NCBI GenBank assembly: GCA_951406725.2
Contig: OX597830.1
Location: 79,670,001-79,734,000, forward strand
DNA length: 64,000 nucleotides
DNA from: Octopus vulgaris
Taxonomy: Eukaryota
Reading direction: 5' to 3'
Within the stretch, counting starts at the first letter, position 1. Each line of letters starts with the position of its first letter. The notes beneath the pieces were generated by a model, which saw only the letters and a list, made by a program, of their open reading frames with translations, did no database searches and had not been told where the DNA came from. The translations under genes and the position numbers were made by a program. Shown here piece by piece: positions 100-22,950 of this stretch.

Positions 100-790
100 T
101 AGGAGGTGCAAAGTGGATGAGAGATTGGTACATTCTGTAAGGATCAGATATCGAGATATGTAGGTATTTAGCGTGTCTTTCGATATGATGAAGAAAGTTT
201 ATCTGGAAATGTCTGTCTACTTACATATCAAAACATATCGATGCCAAAGGCGCTTGAATTAGTGTTTCTGTTGTTTCAGGCTAGAGAAAAGAGGAAAAAC
301 AATGTTAATTGTTGAAAGAAACGTTTGGGTTAGTATTTCTAGGTATAGAAAATAAATTTTAAGTAAAATATATGTTTGAAGGAGGAGGTATATAAGTAAC
401 AGTAGTAAGCAAGAGGCAAAGAATAACCACATCTAAAAGTCTAACAACTACACACGGATATAGACACAGAAAAATCCATTTACAGAAAAAATATAAACAG
501 TTTTATTTTCAATTTAGTTTTAGAGATTTCAACATGGTTAGCATCATTGAATTCAAATGAAGATCTGAAATCGTATTTACAACTATTTTATTTTTATGAA
601 GTTCAGTATTTATGATATCAGTGCAGATCCTATTAATGTCTTACTAATTTAGGCATAATTAAATAAAATCTTTAGGAAAATAATATCCTCAGATGCAATA
701 TGAAACACAATTTATATATGTATACATAAATTATAAAGTTCACATCCTGAAATCATCAAAAGACTCCCAAGAGACTAAAATTCAAAGAAG
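100..790. repeat. Old segmental duplication, paralogous to ~22780-23755
   Basis: Colinear shared motifs: aaggatcagatat, tgtctacttac, gaaggaggaggtatataagtaacagtagt, aagaataaccacatctaaaa, aatatgaaacaca, cacatcc-gaaatcatcaaaa. Confidence 0.85.
225..280 (-). CDS. Candidate 56-nt internal exon (phase 0 to 2), PETTETLIQAPLASICFD; host gene unidentified
   Basis: On the minus strand, the acceptor gtttttcctcttttctctAG precedes it and the donor GTAAGTAG follows it. Only frame 0 is open. Both splice sites are conserved in the paralogous block at 22898-22950. Confidence 0.6.
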
Positions 791-823
791 AAAAACGGTA
801 AAGACATTAAATAGCTTTAAACG

Positions 824-964
824 TTGATTGATTGATTGATTGATTGATTCTAGTTTCAGCTTATGAGCTGTGGCCATGCTGGGGCACCGCCATTTGGTGT
901 TGCTACTTGGTTTCACTTCATGGAGGCTTTCTAGCAACTGCTATTTGGTGCATGAGAGAGTTCG
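824..964 (-). mobile_element. Short 3' end of a CR1-like LINE with a (CAAT)n tail
   Basis: Near-identical to 4534-4670; carries ggcggtgccccagcatggccacagc on the minus strand and a (TTGA)n tract. Confidence 0.8.
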
Positions 965-1313
965 TTATAGAAAGATTTTTTAAAAAATTATGATGAACAT
1001 ATAAATATCATTTAATGTAAGTTTATTTAAGCGTGTACATATTAATTCTACATTTTCCCAATTGAAAAACGGACATATATTGATACAATATTTTACATGA
1101 AATTTGTACAACTTTTGCAAGGATTGTGCAATCTTAACAGGAACTAACTTCTTATATTTCTCAATTCACCCATGATTGCAGGTGTCTTGCACAAATACTA
1201 TTCGCATATGAACGCTTCCTCGCTACACTAAGGCATTAGTTCTTGTGACAAAAGCATCTATATTCTCAGAAGATAACATAGGCATCAACAATGCAAACCT
1301 GGCTGAAGAACAG

Positions 1314-1940
1314 TATATATATATATATATATATATATATATATATATATATATATATATATATATATATATATATATATATATATATATATATATATAT
1401 ATATATATATATATATATATATATATATATATATATATATATATATATATATATATATATATATATATATATATATATATATAATATATATATATATATA
1501 TACACACACACATATATATATATAATACATATATATATATATATACATATATACATACATATATATATACATATATATATATATACATACATATATATAT
1601 ACATACATATATATATATATATACATACATATATATATATACATACATATATATATATATATAAATACATATACATATATATATATACATACATATATAT
1701 ATACATACATATATATATATATACATACATATATATATATACATACATATATATACATACATATATATATACATATATATATATACATACATATATATAT
1801 ATACATACATATATATATATATACATACATATATATATATATATACATACATATATATATATATATATACATACATATATATACATATATGCATATATAC
1901 ATATATATATACATATATATACATACATACATATATATAT
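1314..1940. repeat. (TA)n/(TACA)n compound microsatellite
   Basis: Directly visible; source of the YI-repeat ORFs. Confidence 0.98.
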
Positions 1941-20112: not shown

Positions 20113-21760
20113 TCTATTATATCAACGTCAATGTCTTTATGTGTGTTCGCGTGTTACTTATATATTCAAAAACTGCTGCACCGATCATAATGAAATTTGG
20201 AACACAAAATCAAAGCCTAGGGAGAAGGGCAATGCTGTGTGTTTCATACAATTTCATGGACCAAAATTACTGAATGGATCCTTATGATATTTGAAACTTA
20301 GATTCAATGCATAAGGGCGGGTATAATGCAATATGTTTGGTTTAAATTTCAGATGGCTTAAAGGGGGAAAAACCCCCCATGAAAATTCATAAATTTTTGA
20401 TGTTGATGAAATTTCAACCATAAGTAATTGATACACATCAAGAAGTATTCTCAAAGATTCCACTTCATATGAATATTCTAAGACACCATATTGAGGGCCT
20501 TAACTCCCAAATTTTAGTCATTTCTTTTATGATCCAAAATTAGGTCAAAAGTACTGAATGGATCTTTACGAAATTTGGGAATTATATTCTATGCATAAAG
20601 GCCATAACCCCCATGACAATTCATATATTTTTGCTGCTGATGAAATTTTAACCACAGATATTAGATACAAATGAAGTAATATTTATAAAATTTCATCTTC
20701 TTACAAGTTAGAAACACCCCTTAATGGGGACTTAATACCCACAATTTAATCATTTTATCTAAGCAAAGACGAATACAGTTGTACTCTTGGAAGCTGTAGG
20801 GTCACCCGAGCATAAAGATGAGCATTATTTGTAATTCAATGGTACAACAGTGTAAGAGTTTGCTTTGGCATACACTTAGATTGTGATTTCTGCAATGTGG
20901 TGCATAAATTGTCAAGAAAATGGGAGGCATCTTTGCTTCCGCTGATTCAGTTGCAAAGTGTTGAGTAAAGTTATTTGATTGCAGACCTCCTTTCAGTCTT
21001 TTTATTATCACTGAGTCACACATAGTCCCCAGAGAGTAACATTGATTTCAAGGCCTTCCCAGATGAGTGACTTGTTATTCAAAGACATTTATAGATTGTA
21101 AATTTATTCTGTCCAGTTACGTATCAGTACAGTGGTCATTTGCAAACTCCAACTTTCATTTATCCTTAGCCCTCACGTCACACAGTTGTTAATGTTTATT
21201 TCAGTTGGGTCACGCCCTTCCAATTACTATAGATTCGTAATGCATCTTCCGGCTGTAATACTACAATGGGAATATTGCATTGGGAGTGGTAACGACTGGA
21301 GTAGGGTAGCTGACTGCTTATTGTGATGATTCGTCTTTTGGTTTCCTGTAGCTTTGCTCTATTTTACAAACCCAGTGAACATATATTTCCTATTTCAAAG
21401 AAATTCAAGCAATAGATATAAGACCCTAGTTAAAAATATTCTCAACAATTCAACTTCTCTGCTTGACATTAAGACATCCCCCACCAATAGAGGCCTTAAC
21501 TCTCACATTTTAGAGCGTTCCATGACCTCCATTTTTCAGGAGCAAAATCCTTTTAACAGGTTCTATAAGACTAGAATTTTGGAATATGCGCATAAAAATC
21601 ATTAGTATGGGATACATGTGGTACGATTACAATTTTTTTAGGTTGTGTAAAGAGGGAAATAACCCTCATCTGCAATTTTGATGAAATTCGAAACATTACA
21701 GAAAATATAACAGAAAAGCCTAATTCTTCAATTACATGTAACACGGGCAAAGTGTATATA
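20113..21760. mobile_element. Helitron-like remnant: non-autonomous 5' motif, ~290-bp internal repeats, decayed PIF1-like stretch on the minus strand
   Basis: aaaactgctgcaccgatcataatgaaatttggaaca motif; 20260-20460 is repeated at ~20545-20710; LLNTLQ...MPP...IYAP remnants at ~20890-20980. Boundaries uncertain. Confidence 0.45.
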
Positions 21761-22039
21761 CACACAAATATAACTTGATAGATACAACTGAGTGGGCAAA
21801 CAAAAATATGAGACAGCCTAGTGCTTTTTTTATGTTGATAAGCCTGGTACTTATTCTATTAGTTTCTTCTTGTGAAACCAGTAAGTTATGGGGATGTAAA
21901 TAAACGGACAGCAGTTGTGAAGCAGTGATGAGGGCGAAACACAGAAACAAAGTCACACACATACACTTACATATGTACATACATATATAAACGATTGATT
22001 TCTGTAAGTTTCTGTCTACGAAATCCATATATATATATA

Positions 22040-22220
22040 TAGGGAGAGTTTTCGAAAAAAACAAAGGACGAAGAGAGGTGGTGTACAAAACAAACAGATG
22101 TATTAGTATAACGCTCAGGAATAGAAAAAGTCTTTTACGTTTCGAGCCTACGTTCTTCTACAGAAAGGGACACAGAAAAAACAAGGTGAGAAAAATGTGT
22201 GTAGTGGCTAACGATCTATC
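22040..22220 (-). mobile_element. Solo pLTR of the PLE family at 6001-6260, flanked by (TA)n
   Basis: Colinear with 6001-6200, including the hammerhead-like motif at 22132-22167. Confidence 0.75.
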
Positions 22221-22897
22221 ATATATGAATTTTTTGCGTTATAAGATAAAAAACCAAGGCTGCATAGATATTAGAGCATTTATAGATAGAAGGTCTTACA
22301 GCTGTTTCTAGGATATTAATTAATAATACCCTTCGGATAGCATAAATACCACGCTTAAAAACAGAATAAGATCTGGGATCGATTCATTCCACTAAAACTT
22401 TCTGTCACAATAAAATACGTCAAATATCATTGCAATGACGTAATATTAAATAGCATTGTAGGTAGAAATTCACTGCCAATTAATAAAATCCGTATGTTTT
22501 ATATCAATTCTTTCACTTGGTGTAGAGACTTCGTAAAACATTAATCTTATTTTGGTTATTAATGTTCTAAATTTTTCTAAGGTGACTAAGTTACCTGAAC
22601 TTACAGGCTGTTGTACAAAATACTTGCCATATATCATTTCTTAACTGTCGATTCTCTTTCATTTTTCCATCATGGAAAATACTCAATAACATCGCTTTCC
22701 CTTTATATAAATGCCAGTAATATGGTGGGGTAAATATAGTTTATTCTTTCTTTTATTATTGTTGAAATTGTTCAAATACTAAAGGATAAAAGCAATACTT
22801 AAAATTCTCTAAGGATCAGATATGAAGAGATTTAGAGGTTTAGTGGTGTCTTTAAATATGATGAGTAAATGTAATATAGAAATGTTTGTCTACTTAC

Positions 22898-22950
22898 CCA
22901 TTGGCAGAAGATGCCATTGCCACCGGCCTTCGTCCTCCACCTCTTCCAAT
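22898..22950 (-). CDS. Candidate 53-nt internal exon (phase 0 to 2), IGRGGGRRPVAMASSANG
   Basis: Acceptor tttgtattattctctAG, donor TGG|GTAAGTAG; GC-rich island in AT-rich flanks; positional paralog of 225-280. Confidence 0.65.

What the first reader, a model, noticed from the sequence alone, without database searches (positions are those of the whole stretch)
225..22950. Duplicated micro-exon with conserved introns but a hypervariable coding core
Seen: blocks ~100-790 and ~22780-23755 are colinear paralogs. Similarity collapses between a shared minus-strand acceptor (...tctctAG) and a shared donor (GTAAGTAGACA). The enclosed exons are 56 and 53 nt, one codon apart, so both run phase 0 to 2. 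They encode PETTETLIQAPLASICFD and IGRGGGRRPVAMASSANG, sharing only the LAS/MAS core. Established: exons diverging faster than their introns is a signature of diversifying selection, as in conotoxin and snake-toxin genes, TEP/alpha-2-macroglobulin bait regions and insect serpin RCL cassettes. Inference: this may be a variable cassette system (alternative exons or tandem paralogs). A protease-bait or linker role is only a hypothesis suggested by the G/R-rich versus T/E/hydrophobic peptides; the gene cannot be named from this window.
Basis: partly seen in the sequence, partly recalled or inferred. Interest (0 to 1): 0.75.

Follow-up and report, generated by a model that had tools for sequence, protein, structure and literature searches.

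The report
Fast-evolving micro-exon tail of octopus TRPM
These tiny exons are real and change their amino acids far faster than their introns change, but they are links in a chain of alternating mini-exons joined one after another into the likely floppy front end of an octopus ion-channel gene whose sensor domain is repeated, not a menu of interchangeable cassettes.

Summary
Observation confirmed; cassette reading mostly wrong. Exons A (225-280) and B (22898-22950) are phase 0->2 micro-exons that share 49% identity against 79% in their flanks. They alternate with phase 2->0 micro-exons such as 14876-14924. Public gene models and GT-AG joints in probable RNA contigs (laid on a paralog) join them in series. 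Downstream, outside the window, lies a TRPM-beta-derived channel gene with up to five tandem SLOG (MHR1-3) modules, then MHR4 and the pore. The chromosome holds at least 27 SLOG modules but only 8 pore modules. Across 15 A-type copies, amino-acid-changing sites vary about 6 times faster than introns while silent sites match introns: diversifying selection. The window's own copy has frameshifts as assembled. No TEP/alpha-2-macroglobulin link, and no sign of other modules splicing onto the pore exons. The likely role is a variable, disordered regulatory tail on a nucleotide-sensing channel under antagonistic selection; a protease tripwire is possible but untested. This scan reported the same family before on other copies (e1-8662684, e1-9550311). 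I did not find it described in the papers searched.

The parts
225..280 (-). X-class micro-exon A (phase 0->2), third exon of the tail array
   Evidence: present in gene model P0009; N/intron rate ratio 6.1 across 15 copies
14876..14924 (-). Y-class micro-exon Y1 (phase 2->0), lying between B and A and restoring the frame
   Evidence: joints B->Y1 and Y1->A in contigs laid on a paralog
22898..22950 (-). X-class micro-exon B (phase 0->2), first mapped exon of the array; holds an in-frame ATG after which 8 of 8 B copies are identical, so its first 33 nt may be untranslated in 5'-most copies
   Evidence: O. sinensis model P0001 starts at this ATG, model P0009 starts upstream
132..734 (.). duplicated block around exon A (conserved intron flanks)
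   Evidence: 43 matches, all on C17
22804..23380 (.). duplicated block around exon B
14720..15060 (.). block around exon Y1, a second family of conserved intron flanks
   Evidence: 40 scored matches, all on C17
29392..29397 (-). candidate ATG-CAG|GT end of an upstream start exon that would give the 'MQ' of model P0009; unverified
   Evidence: one of four ATGCAR|GT hits in 22950-44000, chosen as candidate by inference; region 92.5% conserved in the 44.6 Mb paralog; no RNA test
35690..64000 (.). about 7.3-kb tandem repeats (99% identical) in the 5' region; found only upstream of copies of this gene; role unknown
   Evidence: (the 16 long matches all lie upstream of B-type exons on C17; the other 24 hit only the last ~110 bases)

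Best explanation
The two exons belong to a chain of alternating phase 0->2 and 2->0 micro-exons, joined in series in gene models and in contigs from probable RNA runs, that encodes the likely disordered N-terminal tail of an octopus TRPM-beta-derived cation-channel gene, and their amino acids are diversifying under positive selection, likely driven by an antagonist such as a pathogen that binds or cuts the tail. Shown: the chain B,Y,A,Y,C,Y,A',Y,Z,Y runs in frame into a SLOG (MHR1/2) exon, and the ~440-kb locus carries five tandem SLOG modules (units 1 and 2 partial), MHR4, pore and coiled coil. Inferred: a two-exon unit with zero net phase can be duplicated, deleted or skipped without breaking the frame, so unequal recombination changes tail length. 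Inferred: intact family members work as nucleotide-sensing, Ca2+-permeable channels with several differently altered pockets, and the tail tunes or guards them. The window's own copy is probably degraded.
For: Phase chain of 10 exons without a break, and strict X/Y alternation of 12 exons in the 44.6 Mb paralog. 28 of 30 X loci gave the donor motif; all 28 exons are 3n+2 long (41-59 nt) and open in frame 0. Model P0009 contains B,Y1,A,Y6,C,Y1',A',Y6' in series; O. sinensis and O. bimaculoides models do likewise. GT-AG joints: Y1->A in 4 of 4 runs, B->Y1 in 3 of 4, Y1->B-type in 3 of 4. PF18139: 75 of 81 hits on C17, 27 of them first exons. 8 pore modules on C17. Locus map. Selection in 15 A copies: N 40/40.7 sites, S 2/13.3, intron 59/368; P(N vs S)=9e-9, P(S vs intron)=1. 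Tail is 49-51% S/T/P/Q/E against 25% in the SLOG core. The O. bimaculoides unit-5-plus-pore model is listed as TRPM-beta in Table S1 of PMC13143021.
Against: No transcript or model spans tail to pore across all five modules; databases split the locus (P0009 and P0016; P0010 and P0040). One O. sinensis model joins the tail and a single SLOG module to the pore (P0008/P0012). The runs are only guessed to be RNA, were laid on a paralog at 80% likeness, and 16 joints were not shown. No contig on the window gene's MHR4 exon was 99% alike, so expression of this copy is not shown. Its unit-1 SLOG exon 2 has two 1-nt deletions and a stop, and unit 3 has a frameshift. Y1 exons show only a weak excess (N/intron 1.6, P=0.1), and N vs S is not significant for B or C alone. 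Disorder rests on composition only. No antagonist, ligand or tissue was identified.
Confidence: 0.75

Rival explanations
1. Mutually exclusive cassette exons (Dscam, TEP2 or insect serpin style; these comparisons are recalled): one X exon per mRNA gives a variable bait.
For: Same phase and conserved flanks across X exons. O. sinensis isoform X4 skips 70 aa of tail in frame.
Against: A 2->0 exon sits between every two X exons. Serial joints in contigs, with no B->A joint among the 15 shown. Serial gene models. No TED domain hit on C17 among 21 matches.
Confidence: 0.05
2. Protease tripwire: the tail collects pathogen-protease cut sites, as in NLRP1 and CARD8, and cleavage opens or releases the channel to trigger a Ca2+ immune or death signal.
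For: Low-complexity N-terminal location and strong positive selection, the pattern described for CARD8 and NLRP1 in PMC10249858 (passages). In A copies the residue after a conserved IQ varies (A, P, S, L, R, Q). Birth-and-death copy pattern.
Against: No cleavage, tissue or infection data. No FIIND-like release module among Pfam hits. One SLOG exon also shows excess amino-acid change, so the pressure is not confined to the tail.
Confidence: 0.15
3. Relaxed, mostly pseudogenic duplicates: the flanks are homogenised by gene conversion or kept for splicing while the exons drift.
For: Frameshifts in several copies (window unit-1 exon 2, L176, L182, one pore exon). Deletions and head-to-head fragments.
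Against: Drift or intron-only conversion would raise silent sites with replacement sites; silent sites match introns (0.15 vs 0.16) while replacement sites are about 6 times higher. All length changes in 28 X exons are whole codons.
Confidence: 0.08
4. Protocadherin-like design (recalled comparison): each SLOG module is a variable cassette spliced onto shared pore exons.
For: At least 27 SLOG modules against 8 pores. The four module-ending exons printed end in phase 0. O. sinensis isoforms put two different SLOG halves on one pore.
Against: At the first MHR4 exon, 3 of 4 upstream loose-end rows read as the adjacent unit-5 exon and 1 as an out-of-frame skip; none matched units 1-4 (one search read). 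Depth was low: 15 contigs in 4 runs.
Confidence: 0.07

Closest known systems
TRPM-beta / TRPM2-like channels (human TRPM2 6mix, Nematostella TRPM2 6co7; clade names from PMC13143021)
   Same: SLOG (MHR1/2), MHR3, MHR4, pore and coiled coil; best PDB sequence match is TRPM2, E 1.6e-142.
   Different: Up to five tandem MHR1-3 modules; micro-exon tail and linkers; the Cys/His Zn-binding segment is lost; ADPR-site residues differ by module; the models end after the coiled coil with no NUDT9-H; many copies.
Schistosome micro-exon genes (PMC4350168, abstract and outline only)
   Same: Micro-exons, recent copy expansion, high dN/dS.
   Different: MEG products are secreted or gland-associated; here asymmetric 0-2/2-0 pairs feed a cytoplasmic channel tail. 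That MEG exons are mostly symmetric is recalled.
NLRP1/CARD8 tripwire regions (PMC10249858, passages)
   Same: Positively selected, disordered N-terminus on a signalling protein.
   Different: No FIIND or CARD; the effector would be an ion pore; cleavage untested.
   Same: Short hypervariable exons in conserved introns.
   Different: Joined in series; unrelated host protein.

Membership tests
TRPM channels | N-terminal SLOG/LSDAT (MHR1/2) domain | tested here: met
   PF18139 hits at 79,611,804 and 79,602,093 downstream of the window and in model P0009
TRPM channels | MHR3/4 plus transmembrane pore and coiled coil | tested here: met
   collinear exons 79,325k-79,254k on the same strand; PF25508 and PF00520 in the adjacent model P0016
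TRPM channels | one intact reading frame from the tail to the pore in this copy | tested here: not met
   frameshifts in unit-1 exon 2 and in unit 3 as assembled; assembly error not excluded
TRPM-beta clade | phylogenetic placement | tested here: inconclusive
   my tree has no TRPM-alpha or TRPS rows; placement rests on Table S1 of PMC13143021 for the O. bimaculoides unit-5 model and on its grouping with the window's unit 5 (100/100)
TRPM2-like ADPR-gated channels | MHR1/2 pocket residues (human Y295, R302, R358) | tested here: inconclusive
   R302 kept except K in unit 3; Y295 is F in unit 1 and the ancestor but lost or S/P in most others; R358 is kept in unit 2 and O. bimaculoides unit 1 (numbering counted by hand); outgroups also vary at R358
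TRPM2-like ADPR-gated channels | N-terminal C3H Zn-binding domain | tested here: not met
   present in P0022 and cuttlefish P0051, absent from the repeated modules (PMC9112350 section 2.3)
TRPM2-like ADPR-gated channels | ligand-gated cation current | not testable with these tools
   needs electrophysiology
Mutually exclusive exon cassettes | same-phase exons with no constitutive exon between them, one used per mRNA | tested here: not met
TEP / alpha-2-macroglobulin | thioester (TED) domain in the host gene | tested here: not met
   0 of 21 PF07678 matches on C17 (best candidates only); none in the host models
Octopus SF1 venom peptide precursors | short ORF mostly on two exons, 1-10 genes | tested here: not met
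   bioRxiv 10.64898/2026.02.02.703354 against the multi-exon TRPM locus; FABP/NR-GRF synteny not tested
Protocadherin-like variable/constant splicing | several upstream modules spliced to one constant exon | tested here: inconclusive
   none seen among 15 contigs from 4 runs

The most novel reading that the evidence does not exclude
Octopuses have turned a TRPM2-like channel into an expanding immune sensor: one chain carries five differently tuned nucleotide pockets, preceded by a recombinable micro-exon tail that acts as a tripwire for pathogen proteases or effectors and is coupled directly to an ion pore.
Probability: 0.15. Interest if true: 0.85.

Novelty: new variant of a known kind. Interest (0 to 1): 0.5.

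Why it matters
In the passages I read, TRP surveys count one TRPM-beta in O. vulgaris (PMC13402157 Table 1), three in O. bimaculoides (PMC13143021 Table S1), and describe cephalopods as among the lowest in TRP expansion (bioRxiv 2021.11.14.466824). One chromosome here holds at least 27 SLOG modules and 8 pores, with a positively selected tail. That points to an overlooked arms race on an intracellular face of a channel. It also shows how phase-complementary exon pairs can build and rearrange low-complexity protein. The micro-exon pair in the window is one piece of this, the copy is probably broken, and the scan has flagged the family twice before.

Tried and rejected
TEP/A2M host: no TED hit on C17. 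Octopus venom-peptide precursor, a recalled lead: dropped after reading the SF1 preprint and finding SLOG exons. The window ORF list was uninformative. Run search: no RNA holder listed; the runs are guessed RNA. Variable/constant splicing onto MHR4 was not seen, and the source of the one odd loose end was not found in the fetched regions. X exons as copies of the core first exon (Z class): best cross-profile E=0.015, unresolved. 5' start exon: the first coding exon of the 43.0 Mb paralog has no homolog upstream of B. Automatic parsing misplaced a splice site in 4 of 30 Y loci (L081, L087, L088, L090). In one search patterns missed 1 of 7 copies of SLOG exon 1 and 3 of 7 of exon 2, the intron alignment for exon 1 was inflated (0.33), and the pore-exon comparison was not completed, so the SLOG figures are rough. 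No structure or complex prediction was run. Literature searches with no description of this architecture in listings or passages: 0 papers; 0 papers.
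Full report
1. Observation. The window is G000:C17:79,670,001-79,734,000. The two blocks align at about 73%. Exon A (225-280, 56 nt) and exon B (22898-22950, 53 nt) lie on the minus strand with TAG and GTAAGT ends, phase 0->2, and the peptides are as stated. 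Exon identity is 26/53 against 382/484 in the flanks, P=1e-5. All 43 genomic matches are on C17. In 28 of the 30 loci fetched the donor motif was found; all 28 exons are 3n+2 long (41, 44, 53, 56 or 59 nt) and open in frame 0. I call these X exons.

2. The chain. Exon 14876-14924 is phase 2->0 and belongs to a second class, Y, with its own flanks; all 40 scored matches are on C17. Profile searches show strict alternation. In the window gene the order is B, Y1, A, Y6, C, Y1', A', Y6', Z, Y7, with phases 0-2, 2-0 throughout. The 44.6 Mb paralog has six X-Y pairs, three of them recent A-Y6 copies. One pair present there is missing from the window gene with the frame kept. An X-Y pair has zero net phase, so it can be copied, lost or skipped; that step is inference.

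3. Host gene. Conserved blocks downstream translate to TRPM N-terminal sequence. PF18139 gives 81 hits: 75 on C17, 4 on C9, 2 on C60; 27 of the C17 hits are first exons of a module (a lower bound). A pore query finds 8 pore modules on C17. A search with the window gene's first SLOG exon returned 9 Octopus proteins. P0009, an O. vulgaris model, contains B, Y1, A, Y6, C, Y1', A' and Y6' in series; O. sinensis and O. bimaculoides models have the same kind of tail. Mapping these on 514 kb shows, on one strand over about 440 kb: tail, part of module 1, the second half of module 2, module 3, micro-exon linker, module 4, micro-exon linker, module 5, MHR4, pore, coiled coil. Databases split this into SLOG-only and pore-bearing models. 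The O. bimaculoides model holding module 5 and the pore region is listed as TRPM-beta in Table S1 of PMC13143021. In a 22-row tree each module groups with its counterpart in O. bimaculoides, so the array predates that split. The five modules form one clade (100/97) beside two single-module paralogs, apart from the conserved gene shared with cuttlefish (midpoint root, no TRPM-alpha rows, one partial row). None of the 14 non-Octopus or unnamed hits among the 29 has more than one module.

4. Origin of the micro-exons. Linker Z exons share flanks with the module's first exon, including exons not used as seeds (E 2.5e-62 and 1e-27). A profile of Y flanks hits the module's second exon weakly (E 3e-6 to 2e-3). 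In the conserved gene the matching segment carries the Cys/His motif that binds Zn in TRPM2 (PMC9112350 section 2.3); it is gone in the repeats.

5. Splicing. No run is on record as RNA. Four guessed-RNA contig sets from 3 studies were laid at 80% likeness on the paralog stretch holding B, Y1 and A. They gave GT-AG joints Y1->A (4 of 4) and B->Y1 (3 of 4), and a Y1->B-type joint (3 of 4) that matches the order at 69.14 Mb. No B->A joint was among the 15 shown; 16 were hidden. Cross-mapping means adjacent and skipping joints cannot be told apart, and O. sinensis isoform X4 skips 70 aa in frame. On the first MHR4 exon, cover was confined to the exon and its joints. Three of four upstream loose-end rows matched the adjacent module-5 exon and one looked like an out-of-frame skip (read). 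Pore exons are therefore spliced, with no sign of protocadherin-like choice at this low depth.

6. Selection. I counted minimum changes per column alike for all site classes. A-type, 15 copies: replacement 40/40.7 sites, silent 2/13.3, intron 59/368; ratio to intron 6.1; P(N vs S)=9e-9. The 12 closest copies: 25/40.7, 1/13.3, 32/369. B and C types give ratios of 5.9 and 7.7 against introns but are not significant against silent sites. Y1 gives 1.6 (P=0.1). Pairwise, L013 and L015 differ at 3.6% of intron sites and 28% of replacement sites. Silent sites track introns, which argues against hypermutation or intron-only homogenisation. Copies are not independent and no codon model was run. In B all variation lies before an internal ATG, mostly between 5'-most and internal copies, so part of B may be untranslated.

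7. State of this copy. Module-1 exon 2 lacks two single bases relative to the paralog and reaches a stop, and module 3 has a frameshift. Several other copies carry 1-nt indels. These may be pseudogenes or assembly errors. Expression of this exact copy is not shown.

8. Mechanism. Shown: exon chain, host domains, excess amino-acid change. From established work: in human TRPM2 the MHR1/2 cleft binds ADPR through Y295, R302 and R358 (PMC6759353 passages). Inferred: intact members are nucleotide-sensing cation channels with several differently tuned or dead pockets, and the S/T/P/Q/E-rich tail (about 50%) is a disordered regulatory surface. Positive selection on a cytoplasmic tail, with rapid gain and loss of copies, suggests an antagonist. 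A CARD8/NLRP1-type tripwire (PMC10249858 passages) is the boldest version; nothing here tests it.

9. Literature seen. PMC13402157: passages, including Table 1 (one alpha and one beta TRPM in O. vulgaris). PMC13143021: passages, section 28 and supplement rows; no tandem MHR repeats in the 12 of 21 places shown. bioRxiv 2021.11.14.466824: passages. bioRxiv 2026.02.02.703354: abstract, sections 5-8 and passages; its supplements were not seen and might list these genes. PMC4350168: abstract and outline. PMC9112350: abstract and section 2.3. Searches showed no description of the architecture; subscription journals are mostly outside this library. The scan's own notes were read, after my reading was formed.

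10. Verdict. A real feature with real diversifying selection. It is the tail of a multi-SLOG TRPM-beta derivative, joined in series rather than chosen as a cassette. New variant of a known kind; interest 0.5.

Noticed in passing
window 35690-64000: About 7.3-kb tandem repeats, 99% identical, found only upstream of copies of this gene; each unit holds two diverged acceptor-plus-short-ORF elements (near 36990 and 42100, minus strand) that could be 5' exons or nothing.
   Followed up: partly
window 1950-4295 (+): Long reverse-transcriptase ORF (PF00078, E 6e-30) in the intron between Y1 and A; related fragments at 4574-5103.
   Followed up: partly
window 6998-7366 (-): GIY-YIG nuclease fragment below Pfam's cut-off (E 2.7e-4); possibly a Penelope-type element, a recalled label.
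   Followed up: no
G000:C17:79625636-79641200: Compared with the 44.6 Mb paralog, the window gene lacks one whole A+Y2 exon pair at an insertion site, and the frame is kept.
   Followed up: partly
window 11870-12064 (-): An intronic stretch resembling the start of O. sinensis model P0004; probably a repeat mis-called as an exon.
   Followed up: no
L181-L185 (SLOG unit-1 exon 3): Excess replacement change (20/136 against intron 15/458), clustered near the exon start, so the sensor domain may also be under selection; one frameshifted copy is included.
   Followed up: partly
G000:C7:67310526-67311368: A single-piece match over almost the whole pore query (26% identity) in a 332-aa open frame: an intronless TRP-like pore segment.
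   Followed up: no
G000:C17:79362000-79413000: A second chain of alternating micro-exons links modules 4 and 5; O. bimaculoides isoforms differ there by a 13-aa insert.
   Followed up: partly
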